The notes beneath the pieces are model-generated. The model saw only the letters and a list, made by a program, of their open reading frames with translations. It ran no database searches and was not told the DNA's origin. This document shows, one piece after another, positions 19-43,865 of a stretch of DNA of 43,865 bases. The DNA is taken from assembly GCA_032298335.1 (NCBI GenBank), contig GCA_032298335.1_4702.1; one strand, given 5' to 3'. The translations under genes were made by a program, and so were the position numbers. Position 1 is the first letter of the stretch, and every line of letters begins with the position of its first letter. Source of the DNA: a phage.

Positions 19-142
19 CTTAGGTTATTACTTGATGGATAGCTTAGGTTAACCTTAGTGGAACGCCTTAGTTAAAGACTTAGTGCTTATCTTAGTAACA
101 GCTTAGTAGTGTACCTTAGTTGGTCTTAGTGAATAGCCTTAG
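19..142. repeat. Periodic CTTAG(T/G) array, about 10 copies at roughly 12-bp spacing
   Basis: CTTAG begins at 19, 43, 54, 67, 79, 91, 102, 115, 125, 138; further copies at 320, 335, 354 and 459. Non-coding left-end region. Confidence 0.8.
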
Positions 143-340
143 TGATTGCACATGCAAGCATGTAAGATGCCAATAGGTCGCGGTCTGTAGACCGCTAAAG
201 AAAGAGAATAGTAATAAGATGCAGTAGGAGGAACACCAGAAGCCTAGCCAACCTAGCCTATCCTAGCTCTGTATCTATTGCTTTTCCTTAGTCTCACATG
301 TTAGACAACCTATATTATTCTTAGTGATGATAACTTAGTG

Positions 341-369
341 TTGACAAGATAATCTTAGTGTAATACCAT
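341..369 (+). promoter_or_regulatory. Candidate host sigma70 early promoter (TTGACA, 17-nt spacer, TACCAT)
   Basis: Perfect -35 hexamer TTGACA at 341-346; weak -10 TACCAT at 364-369; lies upstream of the first early ORFs. Confidence 0.3.
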
Positions 370-470
370 GCATCACGTAGGCGGTGCTGAGGCACCTAGT
401 AGCCAGCTAGTAAGGCATACGAAGAGACTAGCGCTTACATTGCTCTTTAACAATTTGCTTAGTGTAACCT

Positions 471-5795: not shown

Positions 5796-5829
5796 ACCTA
5801 CTACCGGTAACATTTCATTAACATAAAGT

Positions 5830-5845
5830 GTCTCACATGTGAGAC
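5830..5845. repeat. 16-bp perfect palindrome GTCTCACATGTGAGAC (copy 1)
   Basis: Exact self-complementary 16-mer immediately upstream of a promoter variant. Confidence 0.9.
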
Positions 5846-5963: not shown

Positions 5964-6011
5964 CTTCTTCCTTCCTCTTATTACTACTTAGAGGAAGGGC
6001 AGATCTAGGTT

Positions 6012-6027
6012 GTCTCACATGTGAGAC
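6012..6027. repeat. 16-bp perfect palindrome GTCTCACATGTGAGAC (copy 2)
   Basis: Exact repeat of the palindrome at 5830, again directly upstream of a promoter variant. Confidence 0.9.
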
Positions 6028-6211: not shown

Positions 6212-8200
6212 ATGGCTATTATTCAGAATGTACCGTGTCCTGCCTGTCAAAAGAATGGACATGATATTACTGGCAACCATCTTATGATATTTGAGGATGG
6301 CGCTGGTTACTGTAACCGTGGTCACTTCCATGATAATGGGAAGCCTTATTACCATAAGCCAGAGGGTGGTATCGAGATAACCGAATTGCCTATTACTGGC
6401 AATATCAAATATACACCTTCTCAATTCAAAGAAATGGAGAAGGAAGGGAAGATAAGCGACCCTAAGCTACGCGCCATCGCACTTGGTGGTATGCGTATGA
6501 AAGACCGTTGGGAGGTTATGAATGAGCAAGAAAGGGCAGACCAAGAAGCAGAGTGGAAACTTGATGTTGAATGGTTCCTCACGCTTAAGCGTAAGAACCT
6601 TGTATCCCGTCACATTCGAGGTGACATCGCAGCAATGTACGATGTGCGCGTTGGACACGATGAAGAGGGAAGAGTCAACCGTCACTATTATCCACGATAT
6701 GAAAAGGGTGTGCTTGTTGGAGCAAAATGCCGGACGTTGCCGAAGGATTTTAAGTTCGGACACCTAGGTAAACTCTTTGGTATGCAAGATCTTTTCGGTA
6801 TGAATACTTTGTCTCACGTGTTAGACAAGGGGAGGCGAAAGGATTGCTTGCTTATTGTAGGCGGTGAACTTGATGCACTAGCAGCGCAGCAGATGCTCCT
6901 TGATTCTGCCAAGGGTACTAAGTGGGAAGGACAACCATATCATGTGTGGTCTGTCAACAAGGGCGAGTCTTGCCTTGAAGAGATAGTGCAGAACCGTGAG
7001 CATATCGCCCAATTCAAGAAGATTATATGGGGTTTTGATGGAGATGAGGTAGGGCAGAAGCAGAATCAGCAAGCGGCTCGCCTGTTTCCTGGCAAATCCT
7101 ATATCCTTGAATACCCCTCTGGTTGCAAAGATGCTAACAAGGCATTGATGGCTGGCAAGGCCAAAGAGTTTGTTGATGCATGGTTTAATGCCAAGTCATC
7201 TGATGAAGTCTTTGGTAGCCAGATTAAATCTATCGCATCTCAAAGGGATAAGCTCAAGGCTGCACGTCCAGAGCAAGGACTATCATGGCCTTGGCCTAAG
7301 CTGAACAAGGTAACGCTAGGTATTCGTAAGAACCAACTTATCATTGTAGGCGCAGGCTCTGGTGTAGGTAAGACTGAGTTCCTTCGTGAAGTAGTTAAGC
7401 ACCTCATTGAAGAACACGGTGAATCTGTAGGCATCATTTCTACAGAAGACCCGATGGTCAAGGTGTCCCGTGCTTTTATCGGCAAGTGGATTGATAAGCG
7501 TATTGAGTTACCGCCAACCAACGACCCTAAAGAAGACGGATACCGTGAGGTGTTCGACTACACCGAGGAAGAAGCTAACGCCGCCATTGATTATGTAGCT
7601 GATACAGGTAAGCTGTTTGTAGCTGACCTAGAGGGTGACTATTCGATGGAAAAGGTAGAGCAAACTTGCCTAGAGTTTGAGGCTATGGGCATTTCTAATA
7701 TCATCATTGATAACTTAACGGGGATTAAATTAGATGAGCGTGCTTTTGGTGGGAAGGTTGGTGCACTTGATGAATGCGTCAAGCGGATTGGTACTATCAA
7801 AGACCGACACCCGGTTACTATATTCCTTGTATCACACCTTACACGTCCTCCGGCAAACCGTACCCAACACGAAGAAGGTGGCGAAGTTATCCTTTCTGAC
7901 TTCCGAGGCTCAGGCGCTATCGGATTCTGGGCATCTTACGCCTTGGGGATTGAGCGTAATACAAGAGCTGAAACGCTTGACGAAAGGACTACCACGTACA
8001 TCTCTTGTGTCAAAGACCGCGACCAAGGAATATTTTCCGGTACTCGTATAATGCTTAAAGGTGATATTGCTACTGGTCGATTACGTGAACCAGAGCAAAG
8101 ATCTCGACCGTTTGATACTGGTGCTCCAAAAGAACAAACTGTACCAGAAGAAGTAGTGGATAAAGGAGGATTTATTGCTGACGAAGTTGAAGAGTTTTGA
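6212..8200 (+). CDS. Bifunctional DNA primase/helicase (T7 gp4-like)
   Basis: N-terminal zinc-ribbon CPACQ...CNRGHFH; Walker A GAGSGVGKTEF; helicase motifs IIIDNLTG and VSHLTRPPANRTQHEEGGEVILSDFRGSGAIG paralleling T7 gp4; acidic C-terminus ending EEF. Confidence 0.95.
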   Translation: MAIIQNVPCPACQKNGHDITGNHLMIFEDGAGYCNRGHFHDNGKPYYHKPEGGIEITELPITGNIKYTPSQFKEMEKEGKISDPKLRAIALGGMRMKDRWEVMNEQERADQEAEWKLDVEWFLTLKRKNLVSRHIRGDIAAMYDVRVGHDEEGRVNRHYYPRYEKGVLVGAKCRTLPKDFKFGHLGKLFGMQDLFGMNTLSHVLDKGRRKDCLLIVGGELDALAAQQMLLDSAKGTKWEGQPYHVWSVNKGESCLEEIVQNREHIAQFKKIIWGFDGDEVGQKQNQQAARLFPGKSYILEYPSGCKDANKALMAGKAKEFVDAWFNAKSSDEVFGSQIKSIASQRDKLKAARPEQGLSWPWPKLNKVTLGIRKNQLIIVGAGSGVGKTEFLREVVKHLIEEHGESVGIISTEDPMVKVSRAFIGKWIDKRIELPPTNDPKEDGYREVFDYTEEEANAAIDYVADTGKLFVADLEGDYSMEKVEQTCLEFEAMGISNIIIDNLTGIKLDERAFGGKVGALDECVKRIGTIKDRHPVTIFLVSHLTRPPANRTQHEEGGEVILSDFRGSGAIGFWASYALGIERNTRAETLDERTTTYISCVKDRDQGIFSGTRIMLKGDIATGRLREPEQRSRPFDTGAPKEQTVPEEVVDKGGFIADEVEEF

Positions 8201-9158: not shown

Positions 9159-9170
9159 TAAGTCAAGGGT

Positions 9171-9188
9171 TGTCTCACACGTGAGACA
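9171..9188. repeat. Palindrome variant TGTCTCACACGTGAGACA (copy 3)
   Basis: 8-bp arms identical to the 16-mer palindrome with an altered central dinucleotide; followed by a T-rich stretch. Confidence 0.8.
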
Positions 9189-14092: not shown

Positions 14093-14311
14093 ATGAAAGT
14101 ACAAATCGTAACCCTGCACTGCAAGAAAGGTGTCACAACGCTCGGAGGTAGCACTTTCCACTCTTTCTCCGAAGGGGAGATTTATGCTGACCTGCACTAC
14201 ATCTGGCGCGACGGACAGCACGTGGTGAACTACAGCGACCCAGCTACGGGGAAACGCCACGGCGTATCGCTTCCTGCGCATGACATTGCTCAGGTGAACA
14301 CAGTTTTATAA
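14093..14311 (+). CDS. Hypothetical protein (72 aa)
   Basis: AAGGAG ribosome-binding site; no motif recognised. Confidence 0.55.
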   Translation: MKVQIVTLHCKKGVTTLGGSTFHSFSEGEIYADLHYIWRDGQHVVNYSDPATGKRHGVSLPAHDIAQVNTVL

Positions 14312-14312
14312 A

Positions 14313-14328
14313 GTCTCACATGTGAGAC
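14313..14328. repeat. 16-bp perfect palindrome GTCTCACATGTGAGAC (copy 4)
   Basis: Exact copy, 16 nt upstream of the promoter at 14344. Confidence 0.9.
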
Positions 14329-30948: not shown

Positions 30949-30965
30949 TACCTAACTCAAGGCTT

Positions 30966-30981
30966 GTCTCACATGTGAGAC
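30966..30981. repeat. 16-bp perfect palindrome GTCTCACATGTGAGAC (copy 5)
   Basis: Exact copy between the two large internal virion protein genes, followed by GGTCTTTA. Confidence 0.9.
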
Positions 30982-35181: not shown

Positions 35182-35376
35182 ATGATTAACTCAGAACCGG
35201 TAGATAGTGGTGTGAAGCTTGCGCCACCTGCATTAGTCTCAGGTGGGTACTTCCTCGGTATCAGTTGGAATGATTGGGTTCTTATAGCTACATTCATTTA
35301 TACTGTATTACAAATTGGCGATTGGTTTTATGTAAAATACAAAGCTAGGAGAGATAAGCGTGAGCGTACACAATAA
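35182..35376 (+). CDS. Holin (T7 gp17.5-like)
   Basis: 64 aa; LGISWNDWVLIATFIYTVLQIG parallels T7 holin FGLSLNEWFYVAAIAYTVVQIG; one transmembrane segment and a basic C-terminus. Confidence 0.7.
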   Translation: MINSEPVDSGVKLAPPALVSGGYFLGISWNDWVLIATFIYTVLQIGDWFYVKYKARRDKRERTQ

Positions 35377-35659
35377 ACATGCAGCTACAGAGGATGAGGT
35401 TGGCATTCTGCATGGTGCTATTACCAAAATCTTCAATAAGAAAGCACAGGCAATACTGGACACTATAGAAGAAGACCCTGATGCAGCATTACATTTAGTG
35501 TCTGGTAAGGATATTGGTGCGATGTGTAAGTGGGTTCTTGATAACGGCATTACCGCCACACCTGCTGCACAGCAGGAAGAGTCCAAGTTATCTAAGCGCC
35601 TCAAGGCTATCCGAGAGGCATCCAGTGGTAAGATAATTCAATTCACTAAGGAGGATTGA
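35360..35659 (+). CDS. Terminase small subunit (gp18-like)
   Basis: 99 aa ORF immediately upstream of, and coupled to, the large terminase gene; GTG start with an AGGAGAG ribosome-binding site. Confidence 0.6.
   Translation: MSVHNKHAATEDEVGILHGAITKIFNKKAQAILDTIEEDPDAALHLVSGKDIGAMCKWVLDNGITATPAAQQEESKLSKRLKAIREASSGKIIQFTKED
35451..35471 (+). promoter_or_regulatory. Internal phage promoter inside the small terminase gene
   Basis: CAATACTGGACACTATAGAAG: the 18-nt core is identical to the consensus, the upstream 3 nt differ. Confidence 0.55.
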
Positions 35660-37557
35660 TGGCTAAGGCAAGAGAATCACAAGCGGAGGCTCTTGCCAGA
35701 TGGGAGATGCTACAGGAGTTACAGCAGACCTTTCCTTTCACAGCGGAAGGTTTGCTTCTCTTTGCAGATACAGTTATTCATAACTTAATTGCAGGCAACC
35801 CTCATCTGATTCGTATGCAGGCGGATATCTTGAAGTTCCTATTTTACGGACACAAGTACCGCCTCATCGAAGCGCCTCGTGGTATCGCTAAGACAACACT
35901 ATCAGCAATCTATACGGTATTCCGTATTATTCATGAACCGCATAAGCGTATCATGGTTGTGTCCCAAAACGCCAAGCGAGCAGAGGAAATCGCAGGTTGG
36001 GTAGTTAAAATCTTCCGTGGCTTAGACTTTCTTGAGTTTATGCTGCCGGATATCTACGCTGGGGACCGTGCATCCGTTAAGGCGTTTGAGATTCATTACA
36101 CCCTACGTGGTAGTGATAAGTCTCCTTCTGTATCCTGTTACTCAATCCAAGCAAGTATGCAGGGTGCTCGTGCTGATATTATTCTAGCGGATGACGTAGA
36201 GTCGATGCAGAATGCTCGTACGGCAGCGGGCCGTGCCTTGCTTGAGGAACTGACTAAGGAGTTTGAATCTATCAACCAGTTTGGGGATATCATTTACCTT
36301 GGTACACCTCAGAACGTAAACTCTATCTACAACAACCTACCTGCTCGTGGTTACTCTGTTCGTATCTGGACTGCGCGTTACCCTTCAGTAGAGCAAGAGC
36401 AATGTTATGGCGACTTCCTTGCACCTATGATTGTGCAGAATATGAAGGACAACCCAGCACTGCGCTCAGGGTACGGGTTGGATGGTAATAGTGGTGCACC
36501 TTGTGCCCCTGAAATGTATGATGATGAAGTCCTGATTGAGAAGGAAATCTCTCAGGGTGCTGCTAAGTTCCAGCTTCAGTTCATGCTTAACACTCGCATG
36601 ATGGATGCTGACAGATACCCATTACGCCTGAACAATCTAATCTTCACCTCGTTTGGTACAGAGGAAGTCCCTGTGATGCCTACGTGGAGTAATGATTCCA
36701 TAAACATCATTGGTGATGCACCTAAGTATGGTAACAAGCCTACGGATTTCATGTACAGACCTGTAGCTCGCCCATACGAATGGGGTACTGTCTCCCGCAA
36801 GATTATGTATATTGACCCTGCGGGTGGCGGTAAGAATGGGGATGAGACGGGTGTGGCTATCGTATTCCTGCACGGCACATTCATTTACGTGTATCAGTGC
36901 TTCGGTGTGCCGGGTGGATACCGCGAATCGTCCCTGAATCGCATTGTGCAGGCCGCAAAGCAGGCGGGTGTTAAAGAGGTATTCATTGAGAAGAACTTTG
37001 GTCATGGCGCGTTTGAGGCGGTAATTAAGCCGTACTTTGAACGAGAGTGGCCTGTAACGCTGGAAGAGGATTACGCCACCGGACAGAAAGAGTTGCGTAT
37101 CATTGAGACGCTGGAGCCGCTCATGGCAGCCCATAGGCTTATCTTCAATGCAGAGATGGTGAAGTCAGACTTTGAGTCGGTACAGCACTATCCGCTTGAA
37201 CTACGCATGTCCTACAGTCTTTTCAATCAAATGTCGAACATAACGATTGAGAAGAACAGCCTCCGGCACGATGACCGCCTAGACGCCCTGTATGGCGCTA
37301 TACGGCAATTAACTTCTCAGATAGACTATGACGAGGTTACACGGATTAATCGCCTCAGAGCGCAGGAGATGCGAGATTACATCCATGCTATGAACACACC
37401 TCATCTACGCAGGGCAATGCTATATGGGGATTACGGTACTGAGCGAAGAGTGACCAACACTTCCGTAGCGATGCAGCAGCGAGTTTACGGGCAGAACTAC
37501 CGAAATAAATCGGCAAGCAGAAATACACTTTCTGCAAGGATTTCAAGGACTTATTAA
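35659..37557 (+). CDS. Terminase large subunit (gp19-like)
   Basis: 632 aa; ATPase N-terminal half and nuclease C-terminal half expected from size and position; ATG overlaps the small-subunit stop. Confidence 0.9.
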   Translation: MAKARESQAEALARWEMLQELQQTFPFTAEGLLLFADTVIHNLIAGNPHLIRMQADILKFLFYGHKYRLIEAPRGIAKTTLSAIYTVFRIIHEPHKRIMVVSQNAKRAEEIAGWVVKIFRGLDFLEFMLPDIYAGDRASVKAFEIHYTLRGSDKSPSVSCYSIQASMQGARADIILADDVESMQNARTAAGRALLEELTKEFESINQFGDIIYLGTPQNVNSIYNNLPARGYSVRIWTARYPSVEQEQCYGDFLAPMIVQNMKDNPALRSGYGLDGNSGAPCAPEMYDDEVLIEKEISQGAAKFQLQFMLNTRMMDADRYPLRLNNLIFTSFGTEEVPVMPTWSNDSINIIGDAPKYGNKPTDFMYRPVARPYEWGTVSRKIMYIDPAGGGKNGDETGVAIVFLHGTFIYVYQCFGVPGGYRESSLNRIVQAAKQAGVKEVFIEKNFGHGAFEAVIKPYFEREWPVTLEEDYATGQKELRIIETLEPLMAAHRLIFNAEMVKSDFESVQHYPLELRMSYSLFNQMSNITIEKNSLRHDDRLDALYGAIRQLTSQIDYDEVTRINRLRAQEMRDYIHAMNTPHLRRAMLYGDYGTERRVTNTSVAMQQRVYGQNYRNKSASRNTLSARISRTY

Positions 37558-43213: not shown

Positions 43214-43675
43214 ATGGAAGTTTGGAGGCCTATTGCTGGTATACCAGATTACATGGTTTCCTCCTTTGGTCGTGTTAGATCTCATAAAAGAGGTAAGGTT
43301 ACTATACTAAACCCTCCGCACGACAAAGGGGGTTATCGTAATGTTGTGCTACGTGTTAATGGTGAAAAGATAAATCGCAAGGTACATAGGCTTGTGGCAG
43401 AGGCTTTCTTACCTAATCCTCACGGTTTACCTCAAGTAAATCACAAGGATGAAGTAAGAGACAATAATCATGTAAGTAATCTGGAGTGGTGTGATTGTGC
43501 ATACAACGTAGATTACTCTCAAGCAGCTACTTATACTGTGATGTGCCCTAAAGGTAATATCTTAGTAGTAAGGAATGTGGCTAAGTTTTGTAGGGAAAAC
43601 GGATTAAGCAGTGGTTCTTTTACAGATATGCTTAAGGGGAGACGTAAGCAACATAAGGGTTATCGCTTAGTGTAA
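43214..43675 (+). CDS. HNH homing endonuclease (second copy)
   Basis: HRLVAEAF ... NP ... PQVNHKD ... NLEW HNH motif; C-terminal FCRENGL ... KG(R)RKQHKG block shared with the 8175-8663 protein; AT-rich. Confidence 0.85.
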   Translation: MEVWRPIAGIPDYMVSSFGRVRSHKRGKVTILNPPHDKGGYRNVVLRVNGEKINRKVHRLVAEAFLPNPHGLPQVNHKDEVRDNNHVSNLEWCDCAYNVDYSQAATYTVMCPKGNILVVRNVAKFCRENGLSSGSFTDMLKGRRKQHKGYRLV

Positions 43676-43865
43676 TACTTAGTGAGAGGGCTATACATGC
43701 CAAGTGGAAAATTTGATATGTATATGCGTCAAGTGTCTCGCCCTCGCCCTCGCCGGGTTGCCCCCCATAGGGTGGCCTGAGGGAATCCGTCTTCGACGGG
43801 CAGGGCTGATGTACTCCTTGCCTAGTACAAGGGAGGCGGAGGGAACGCCTAGGGAGGCCTAGGAA

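What the first reader, a model, noticed from the sequence alone, without database searches (positions are those of the whole stretch)
19..142. Helical-period CTTAG array at the left end
Ten CTTAG(T/G) copies are spaced 10-13 bp apart, about one helical turn, in non-coding DNA at the left end; four more copies lie at 320-460. This periodicity suggests cooperative binding of a protein along one face of the DNA, or intrinsic curvature, near the packaging/ejection end.
Basis: seen in the sequence. Interest (0 to 1): 0.5.

Follow-up and report, generated by a model that had tools for sequence, protein, structure and literature searches.

The report
Short-repeat array beside phage terminal repeat
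The CTTAG repeats are real and kept by selection, but they are the SP6/K1-5-group version of the short-repeat array that phage T7 carries next to its terminal repeat, a known kind of element whose job (probably in cutting and packaging the genome) has never been shown.

Summary
Observation confirmed. There are ten exact CTTAG(G/T) copies at 19-143, all on the + strand, plus a degenerate copy at 31. Dinucleotide shuffles of 1-150 give a mean of 0.8 and a maximum of 5. Five more copies lie at 287-463 and three at 43561-43683.

The window is a K1-5-like Vectrevirus genome. Position 1 is not the physical end. The terminal repeat (TR) starts at 43736, and about 141 nt of the junction are missing from the window.

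In relatives the array sits 45-75 bp (over 100 in one) inside the left TR, after a conserved ATCTGTT. It occurs in four Molineuxvirinae genera on four host genera.

Across 14 Vectrevirus arrays chosen by a flanking anchor, motif positions differ in 2.2% of cells and spacers in 22.8%.

The period is 11.9 bp (11.3-11.9 in relatives), not 10.5. Predicted static curvature is average. So "one face" and "curved DNA" are not supported.

T7 and T3 have the same layout with CCTAAAG (T7 period 13.1).

Best reading: this is the SP6-group counterpart of T7's left short-repeat array. It is most likely a docking array for a phage-encoded packaging protein (gp18-type small terminase) at the concatemer junction. 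The mechanism is inferred, not shown. It is a new member of a known kind and of modest interest.

The parts
19..143 (+). Core array: 10 exact CTTAG(G/T) units plus a degenerate CTTGA at 31-35. The commonest extended form is (C)CTTAGT(G). The period is 11.9 bp.
   Evidence: Motif versus spacer conservation.
287..292 (+). Outlying CTTAGT copy that overlaps the imperfect palindrome GTCTCACATGTTAGAC (291-306).
   Evidence: (family D3)
320..360 (+). Three CTTAGTG copies (320, 334, 354) around the first sigma-70-type early promoter. The copy at 334 abuts the -35 hexamer (CTTAGTGTTGACA). The copy at 354 lies in the promoter spacer.
   Evidence: The composite CTTAGTGTTGACA is also present in K1-5, T205P5, SP6, Kenya-K11, Koku and cp4.
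458..464 (+). CTTAGTG copy 3 nt after the boxA-like GCTCTTTAACAAT (442-454).
   Evidence: (D8)
43561..43683 (+). Three copies to the left of the terminal repeat (43561, 43666, 43678). These correspond in position to T7's right-hand short repeats. The first two lie inside or at the end of the HNH gene.
   Evidence: Equivalent copies occur in K1-5 and SP6 and in T7.
43736..43865 (+). First 130 nt of the direct terminal repeat (TCTCGCCCTCGCC...). The rest of the repeat is missing from the window. The missing part holds 3 more CTTAGT copies and the repeat's end GGGCTA|TCTGTT.
147..196 (+). Conserved two-hairpin module directly after the array: ACATGC-AA-GCATGT, then TAAGATGC, then GCGGTC-TGTA-GACCGC. 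It may belong to the same functional unit as the array.
   Evidence: 3 pairs of hairpin 1 keep pairing through double changes in 3 of 8 sequences; Pm5460 has a different second hairpin
35360..35659 (+). Small terminase subunit gene (T7 gp18 family), the candidate binder of the array.
   Evidence: PF11123, 59.7 bits; phrog_891. T7 gp18 is in the same Pfam family.
35656..37557 (+). Large terminase subunit gene (T7 gp19 type).

Best explanation
The array is the SP6/K1-5-group (Molineuxvirinae) counterpart of the short-repeat array that T7 carries just inside its left terminal repeat (called SRL by Dunn and Studier 1983; that name is from my own knowledge). In replicating concatemers the order is: right-end unique DNA with a few motif copies, then the terminal repeat with three copies, then the class II RNA-polymerase pause sequence ATCTGTT at the repeat's right edge, then a spacer of about 45-75 bp in most relatives (over 100 bp in one), then this array, then a two-hairpin module, then the early promoters. 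I infer that the 8-12 like-oriented CTTAGT sites, spaced about 12 bp apart, are a docking platform. A phage-encoded protein would bind them cooperatively. The most likely candidate is an oligomer of the gp18-type small terminase, acting with the large terminase and the paused phage RNA polymerase. This would mark the concatemer junction and position or regulate cutting and duplication of the terminal repeat and packaging. Because the period is about 12 bp and not 10.5, the bound protein would follow a shallow helix around the DNA, or would wrap or untwist it, and would not sit on one face. Shown here: the array, its position, its conservation, selection on the motif, and the parallel with T7 and T3. 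Inferred: protein binding, the identity of the binder, and the role in packaging.
For: The array is real and far above chance.

Its position is the same in all relatives that carry the junction. It follows GGGCTATCTGTT at the end of the terminal repeat, as seen in K1-5, K1E, T205P5, SP6, Kenya-K11, Pm5460, Koku and nine IMG/VR contigs.

Selection acts on the motif and not on the spacers. In 14 Vectrevirus arrays chosen by a downstream anchor and not by the motif, 2.2% of motif cells differ against 22.8% of spacer cells, and variable columns number 14/50 against 48/74 (Fisher p=1e-4). Across genera, motif columns are 72-92% identical and spacers 38-46%.

Period and copy number are conserved: 11.3-11.9 bp and 8-12 units in four genera.

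The motif follows the phage lineage and not the host. Molineuxvirinae of E. coli, Salmonella, Proteus and Klebsiella share CTTAG. The E. coli phages T7 (CCTAAAG) and K1F (CATAAG/CTACAG) use other words. This points to a phage-encoded reader.

T7 and T3 have the same layout. Copies lie inside the terminal repeat, ATCTGTT follows at the repeat's end (T7 161, T3 232), an array follows that (T7: 12 units, period 13.1), and more copies lie left of the right-hand repeat.

The window encodes a T7-type terminase. The small subunit falls in PF11123, as T7 gp18 does.

Three points come from the literature. gp18 is the DNA-interacting terminase component in T3/T7 (PMC2366019). [quoted passage not shown] The concatemer junction is a class II pause/terminator with a strictly conserved 7-base core (bioRxiv 10.64898/2026.02.12.705533).
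Against: No binding data exist for any protein on this array or, to my knowledge, on the T7 array.

The distance from the end of the terminal repeat to the first unit is not fixed. It is about 8 bp in T7, 45-76 bp here, and over 100 bp in L138 through expansion of a CTCACT repeat. This argues against a rigid geometry between binding site and cut site of the lambda cosB type.

Copy number is flexible at 6-12, and two units are deleted in ACG-C91.

Klebsiella phage cp4 keeps only the CTTAT-type units. It has lost the CTTAGT units and the hairpin module.

Extra copies sit at an early host-type promoter and after boxA. That fits a transcription role as well as a packaging one.

If packaging runs right end first, as I recall for T7, the array lies outside the DNA end that is packaged first. 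That is unlike lambda cosB.
Confidence: 0.42

Rival explanations
1. Transcription control. The motif would be read by a phage or host factor that acts on RNA polymerase. It could reinforce or resolve the class II pause at the junction, block read-through from one genome copy into the next, or shut off the leftmost early promoter later in infection.
For: The array lies directly downstream of ATCTGTT in all relatives. CTTAGTG abuts the -35 hexamer and sits in the spacer of the first early promoter (334-360), and the composite CTTAGTGTTGACA is conserved across genera. T7 likewise has CTTAAAG in the A1 promoter spacer and after phiOL. Another copy follows boxA at 458.
Against: Ten tandem sites are far more than a roadblock or an operator needs. 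No sequence-specific transcription regulator is known or was identified in this phage group. Class II pausing in T7 needs only the short core sequence. The second early promoter (925-953) has no copy nearby.
Confidence: 0.17
2. Replication or repeat-duplication aid. The array would help end replication or the copying of the terminal repeat, for example by slowing forks, promoting strand displacement, or supplying priming sites close to the repeat.
For: The array flanks the terminal repeat on the side where the repeat must be re-synthesised for the next genome. A hairpin module with covariation follows it. In T7 the spacers of the second half of the array (ACCAGACC) carry T7 primase words on the bottom strand (sequence; site specificity from my own knowledge).
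Against: The conserved part here is the motif and not the spacers. CTTAGT and its complement lack GCA, which I recall as the SP6 primase recognition word (own knowledge, not checked here). No initiator protein is known in this phage family.
Confidence: 0.1
3. RNA-level function. The array and the hairpins would be transcribed, either from read-through across the junction or from a weak promoter at the repeat's end, and the CUUAGU repeats would act in the RNA, for example by titrating a protein.
For: All copies are on the sense strand for rightward transcription. The adjoining hairpins keep pairing through compensatory changes, as in structured RNA. Relatives carry TTGACA-N18-TATCTG across the repeat's end, and the T7 junction acts as an E. 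coli promoter in plasmid constructs.
Against: There is no Rfam match. The -10-like hexamer TATCTG lacks the final T. Copies inside the terminal repeat and in an unrelated context at the right end fit a DNA site better. No RNA-binding protein with this specificity is known.
Confidence: 0.07
4. Protein-independent DNA mechanics. The array would act through intrinsic curvature or unusual flexibility of the leading end.
For: The motif is short, has a regular period and contains the flexible TA step.
Against: The period is 11.9 bp and phase coherence at 10.5 bp is 0.2-0.27. Wedge-model curvature is average and there are no phased A-tracts (parameters recalled from memory, so this is rough). Lineage-specific words are not expected for a purely mechanical role.
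Confidence: 0.05
5. A neutral by-product of replication slippage with no function.
For: Local duplications and deletions of units do occur: CTTAGCTTAG in K1E-type arrays and a two-unit deletion in ACG-C91.
Against: The units are not tandem copies. Spacers differ and Tandem Repeats Finder reports nothing at 19-143. The motif is ten times better conserved than the spacers. The array persists across four genera and has parallels in T7 and T3.
Confidence: 0.03

Closest known systems
T7/T3 short-repeat arrays flanking the terminal repeat (SRL and SRR of Dunn and Studier 1983; names from my own knowledge, sequences checked here)
   Same: The phage family and the terminase family are the same. The order is the same: terminal repeat, ATCTGTT, then an array of about 10-12 like-oriented 6-7-bp words at 12-13 bp. 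Extra copies lie inside the repeat, left of the right-hand repeat and at the first early promoter.
   Different: The word differs (CTTAGT against CCTAAAG). The period is 11.9 bp against 13.1. A 45-75-bp spacer separates the repeat from the array, against about 8 bp in T7. A conserved two-hairpin module follows the array here. The function is undetermined in both.
Lambda cosB (R sites) and cosQ; pac sites of SPP1 and P22 read by small terminase
   Same: These are multiple short sites next to the terminase cutting site. They are read by the small subunit and define where packaging starts or stops.
   Different: Those systems have 3-4 sites, often with a host bending protein, at a fixed distance from the cut and inside the DNA packaged first. 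Here there are 10-11 sites at a variable distance, on the far side of the terminal repeat. Binding is untested.
Plasmid centromere arrays (for example R1 parC: ten 11-bp direct repeats bound by ParR; own knowledge)
   Same: About ten direct repeats with a period of 11-12 bp are bound cooperatively, so that the DNA forms a helical or ring-shaped nucleoprotein complex. This is a working model for how an array that is not in helical phase can be read.
   Different: There is no partition system here. The repeat units are not contiguous iterons. The resemblance is one of architecture only.

Membership tests
T7-type short-repeat array at the concatemer junction (SRL type) | Lies just inside the left direct terminal repeat, after the junction pause sequence ATCTGTT | tested here: met
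   Met in every relative that holds the junction. The window itself lacks the last 141 nt of the junction, so the adjacency is inferred from 95-97% identical relatives.
T7-type short-repeat array at the concatemer junction (SRL type) | About 10-12 copies of a 6-7-bp word, all in one orientation, spaced 11-13 bp apart with unrelated spacers | tested here: met
   There are 11 units, all on the + strand, with a period of 11.9 bp. T7 has 12 units with a period of 13.1.
T7-type short-repeat array at the concatemer junction (SRL type) | Further copies of the same word inside the terminal repeat and to the left of the right-hand repeat | tested here: met
   Three copies lie inside the repeat of K1-5 and T205P5. 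Three lie at 43561-43683 in the window. The same holds in T7.
T7-type short-repeat array at the concatemer junction (SRL type) | Host phage has the T7-type packaging and transcription machinery | tested here: met
   The small terminase is PF11123, as is T7 gp18. The large terminase has the T7 RNaseH-like domain. There are 9-11 SP6-type phage promoters. The taxonomy of the nearest records is Autographiviridae, Molineuxvirinae.
Small-terminase recognition site (pac/cosB-like) | Specific binding by the small terminase subunit | not testable with these tools
   This needs gel-shift or footprinting. No solved structure of a relative is available.
Small-terminase recognition site (pac/cosB-like) | Fixed, short distance to the cutting site | tested here: not met
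   The distance from ATCTGTT to the first unit varies from 47 to 76 bp, exceeds 100 bp in L138, and is about 8 bp in T7.
Small-terminase recognition site (pac/cosB-like) | Required for packaging | not testable with these tools
   This needs deletion or scrambling in the phage, or plasmid transduction assays.
Intrinsically curved DNA / helically phased binding sites | Repeat period equal to the helical repeat (10-10.6 bp), or phased A-tracts | tested here: not met
   The best period is 11.9 bp and R(10.5) is 0.20-0.27. Predicted curvature is average.
Simple tandem repeat (slippage product) | Whole units, spacers included, are copies of one another | tested here: not met
   Tandem Repeats Finder finds nothing at 19-143. 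Spacers are unrelated and evolve ten times faster than the motif.
Replication-origin iterons | 17-22-bp iterons read by a phage or plasmid initiator protein | tested here: not met
   The conserved word is 5-7 bp. No initiator gene was seen among the proteins scanned, but not all genes were scanned.

The most novel reading that the evidence does not exclude
The array may be a polar 'rumble strip' for the packaging motor and not a static docking site. Packaging runs right to left (own knowledge for T7). The terminase therefore meets scattered CTTAGT copies (458, 354, 334, 320, 287), then the dense 12-bp array, then the copies inside the terminal repeat. The lineage-specific period (about 12 bp here, about 13 bp in T7) could match one mechanical cycle of the motor. 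The motor would then slow down and become competent for the sequence-specific terminal cut, acting as a multi-copy analogue of lambda cosQ.
Probability: 0.08. Interest if true: 0.7.

Novelty: new member of a known kind. Interest (0 to 1): 0.33.

Why it matters
Short-repeat arrays beside the terminal repeat have been visible in T7 since its genome was sequenced, yet no function has been assigned to them. Three results here make the question directly testable: the SP6/K1-5 group keeps an equivalent array with a different word, the word and not the spacer is under selection, and the word follows the phage lineage and not the host. The obvious tests are scrambling the motif, swapping words between lineages, and asking which phage protein reads them. 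There is also a practical side. These phages are used for therapy and as engineering chassis, and knowing which non-coding DNA at the junction is needed for packaging matters for genome design and for transducing particles. For annotation, the result warns that the 'end' of such assemblies is often not the virion end.

Tried and rejected
(1) A motif-based scan of IMG/VR (CTTAGT three times with 4-8-nt gaps) mostly returned unrelated perfect tandem repeats with periods of 6, 7, 12 or 13 in other viruses. Only eight loci were SP6-like. I replaced it with a scan anchored on the downstream hairpin module.

(2) A first conservation test on five arrays with identical spacing (0/50 against 21/88 variable columns) was circular, because I had picked arrays with intact motifs. 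I repeated it on the anchor-selected set.

(3) Literature searches found no held paper that describes the CTTAGT array or the function of the T7 arrays. The SP6 genome paper is not held, so I could not check whether the array was already described in 2004.

(4) Rfam gave nothing relevant.

(5) Curvature was rejected.

(6) Pseudo-promoter idea. The reverse complement CACTAAG resembles the phage promoter core CACTATAG, but the flanks do not match and the orientation is opposite to the weak T7 resemblance. I dropped it.

(7) Primase-site cluster. The motif lacks GCA, the SP6 primase word as I recall it (not verified). I dropped it as the main reading.

(8) Host-factor binding site. This is unlikely, because E. 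coli phages of different lineages use different words, while one lineage keeps the same word on four host genera.

(9) Chi-like or restriction-related roles. There is no resemblance to Chi, and these were not pursued.

Full report
**1. The observation**

The sequence shows CTTAG(G/T) on the + strand at 19, 43, 54, 67, 79, 91, 102, 115, 125 and 138.
- There is no copy on the - strand anywhere in 1-480.
- Spacings are 24, 11, 13, 12, 12, 11, 13, 10, 13. The 24-bp gap holds a degenerate unit (CTTGA at 31), so the array has 11 units.
- In 5000 dinucleotide-preserving shuffles of 1-150, CTTAG occurs 0.78 times on average and never more than 5 times, against 10 observed.
- No 150-nt window outside the two ends of the sequence holds more than 3 copies on both strands together.
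- Five further copies, not four, lie at 287, 320, 334, 354 and 458. Three lie at 43561, 43666 and 43678.
- The commonest extended form is (C)CTTAGT(G).
- Tandem Repeats Finder reports nothing at 19-143, because the spacers are unrelated.
- The stretch has stop codons in all six frames and no ORF of 30 aa or more before 368.

**2. Where the array really is**

The window is a nearly complete genome of a K1-5-like Vectrevirus (Autographiviridae, Molineuxvirinae). Its first 1300 bases are 93-97% identical to many such phages.

Position 1 is not the end of the virion DNA.
- The direct terminal repeat begins at 43736 (TCTCGCCCTCGCC...), and the window ends 130 nt into it.
- In K1-5 the repeat is the 234 bp present at both ends of the record.
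- Against the intact junction of Vectrevirus T205P5, the window lacks 141 nt between its last and first base.
- The missing stretch holds three more CTTAGT copies, the end of the repeat (GGGCGTGGGCTA) and the sequence ATCTGTT that straddles it.
- In the virion the array therefore starts roughly 285 bp from the left end, about 50 bp inside the terminal repeat.

**3. Conservation**

The same arrangement is present across Molineuxvirinae: end of repeat with ATCTGTT, a spacer of 45-76 bp, then the array.
- It occurs in K1-5, K1E and T205P5 (Vectrevirus), SP6 and Kenya-K11 (Zindervirus), Proteus phage Pm5460 (Acadevirus) and Klebsiella phage Koku (Ulipvirus). It also occurs in IMG/VR contigs.
- Klebsiella phage cp4 and Erwinia phage Era103 have CTTATG instead.

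To test selection without choosing sequences by the motif, I fetched all IMG/VR loci that carry the conserved hairpin module downstream of the array. I then aligned 14 distinct Vectrevirus arrays.
- Motif positions differ from the window in 14 of 650 cells (2.2%).
- Spacer positions differ in 219 of 962 cells (22.8%).
- Variable columns number 14/50 against 48/74 (Fisher p=1e-4).
- Most motif changes come from one two-unit deletion and one decayed first unit.
- Across genera, motif columns are 72-92% identical to the window and spacers 38-46%. A repeat-guided alignment favours the motif somewhat.
- Copy number ranges from 6 to 12.

**4. Geometry**

The best-fitting period is 11.9 bp, with phase coherence 0.96. 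Coherence at 10.5 bp is 0.20-0.27.
- On relaxed B-DNA, successive sites therefore rotate by about 50 degrees and make a full turn in about seven units.
- Relatives give 11.3-11.9 bp, all with low coherence at 10.5 bp.
- A wedge-model estimate gives average curvature for the array. Its dinucleotide angles came from memory, so it is rough. The array scores 18.0 degrees per 31 bp against a genome mean of 16.8, and 61% of 125-bp genome windows are predicted to be more bent than the array. There are no phased A-tracts.
- The 'one face of the helix' and 'intrinsic curvature' readings are therefore not supported.

**5. Surroundings**

- Directly after the array comes a module of two hairpins and a repeated TAAGATGC. 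It is conserved across genera, and pairing is kept through compensatory changes.
- Next come three CCTAGC copies (243-267) and an imperfect copy of a 16-bp palindrome (291-306).
- The first sigma-70-type promoter follows: TTGACA-17-TACCAT at 341-369.
- A boxA-like GCTCTTTAACAAT lies at 442-454, and the first small early genes come after it.
- The outlying CTTAGTG copies sit at fixed places in this landscape. One abuts the -35 hexamer, and the composite CTTAGTGTTGACA is conserved in seven genomes. One lies in the promoter spacer. One lies 3 nt after boxA.
- No Rfam family matches.

**6. Comparison with T7 and other relatives**

The T7 record shows the same design with another word.
- CCTAAAG occurs three times inside the 160-bp terminal repeat.
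- ATCTGTT lies at 161-167, right after the repeat.
- Twelve units follow at 176-333 with a period of 13.1 bp.
- More copies lie at phiOL and in the A1 promoter spacer, and left of the right-hand repeat.

Other relatives follow the pattern.
- T3 has ATCTGTT at 232, immediately after its annotated 231-bp repeat, with CCTAAAG copies on both sides.
- K1F uses CATAAG/CTACAG and gh-1 uses CATAGG after their ATCTGT.

From my own knowledge, these T7 arrays were named SRL and SRR by Dunn and Studier (1983), and no function has been established for them. I could not find this in the held literature.

The window encodes a small terminase of the same Pfam family as T7 gp18 (PF11123) and a T7-type large terminase.

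**7. Mechanism**

Two observations point to a phage-encoded reader.
- The word is conserved while the spacers drift.
- The word follows the phage lineage and not the host. One word is used on E. coli, Salmonella, Proteus and Klebsiella, while different words are used by T7, K1F and K1-5 on E. coli.

The literature held here supplies three pieces.
- gp18 is the DNA-interacting terminase component of T3/T7 (PMC2366019).
- The junction carries a class II pause/termination signal with a strictly conserved seven-base core (bioRxiv 10.64898/2026.02.12.705533).

The array lies just downstream of that pause site. My best explanation is a cooperative docking array for the small terminase, or for the terminase-polymerase complex, that marks the junction. 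The roughly 12-bp period implies a helical or wrapped complex. This is inference, and I put it at about 0.4. The identification as the counterpart of T7's array I put at about 0.9.

Several points count against the docking reading.
- The distance to the end of the repeat is variable.
- Copy number is flexible.
- cp4 retains only CTTAT-type units.
- Copies at the early promoter and after boxA fit a transcription role equally well.
- The array lies on the far side of the repeat from the DNA that is packaged first.

**8. Rivals**

The rivals, in order of weight, are:
- transcription control, through pause reinforcement or early-promoter shut-off;
- help with end replication or repeat duplication;
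- an RNA-level role;
- DNA mechanics without protein;
- neutral slippage.

The last two are contradicted.

**9. Verdict**

The helical-phase and curvature ideas fail, and the 'left end' is an assembly end. It is a new member of a known kind of element, the short-repeat arrays beside the terminal repeat of T7-like phages. The 2004 SP6 and K1-5 genome papers may already mention it, but I could not read them. Interest is modest. The value lies in a clean comparative case for an old unanswered question.

Noticed in passing
window 442-454, 987-999, 1195-1207: Three copies of GCTCTTTAACAAT lie in the early region. From my own knowledge this is identical to the boxA antitermination element of E. coli rRNA operons. 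At least the first two follow sigma-70-type promoters (341-369 and 925-953). T7 has the same word at about 813-825. This suggests that early host-polymerase transcripts are made termination-resistant through Nus factors.
   Followed up: partly
window 147-225: A conserved module lies right after the array: two hairpins (150-163 and 179-194) and a direct repeat of TAAGATGC (162-169 and 216-223). Hairpin 1 exists in three different sequence versions that all pair (ACATGC/GCATGT, ATAGCT/AGCTAT, ACAAGC/GCTTGT). Proteus phage Pm5460 has a different second hairpin. There is no Rfam match and the function is unknown.
   Followed up: partly
window 5826-5845, 6008-6027, 6807-6826, 9168-9187, 14309-14328, 30962-30981 (and 287-306): A 16-bp perfect palindrome, GTCTCACATGTGAGAC, occurs seven times. 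Three copies lie 2-15 nt upstream of phage promoters (at 5847, 6032 and 14343). Relatives carry a different perfect palindrome at the left-end position (GTCCAACATGTTGGAC in Pm5460). It could be a hairpin (terminator or processing site) or a regulator site.
   Followed up: no
between window 43865 and window 1 (absent); L007 310-450, L001 128-268: The window lacks 141 nt of the concatemer junction. The missing stretch holds the last ~105 nt of the terminal repeat with three CTTAGT copies. It also holds a strongly conserved TTGACAG-N-GGGCGTGGGCTATCTGTT at the repeat's end. That block contains the class II pause core ATCTGTT and looks like a weak sigma-70 promoter.
   Followed up: partly
window 43214-43675: An HNH/NUMOD4 homing-type endonuclease gene sits just left of the terminal repeat, in place of the small genes found there in K1-5. 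Only three records, two phages (LL11 and vB_Ec-G9), share this stretch. It is probably a mobile insertion.
   Followed up: partly
window 243-267: Three CCTAGC copies are spaced 9-11 bp apart (CCTAGCCAACCTAGCCTATCCTAGC). They are conserved in K1-5, K1E and SP6. CTAG is otherwise a rare word in enterobacterial DNA.
   Followed up: no
L138 (IMG/VR 2974615129), L008, between ATCTGTT and the array: The spacer between the end of the repeat and the array contains a CTCACT/GCTCCTCACT repeat. This repeat expands in some phages (four copies in L138), so the distance from the repeat to the array is variable.
   Followed up: no
L012 (Klebsiella phage cp4) 170-700: cp4 keeps eight CTTAT(G)-type units at a 12-bp period. 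It has lost the CTTAGT units and the hairpin module. An unscanned ORF-like stretch sits there instead, before the early promoters. This is a natural variant useful for testing what the array does.
   Followed up: partly
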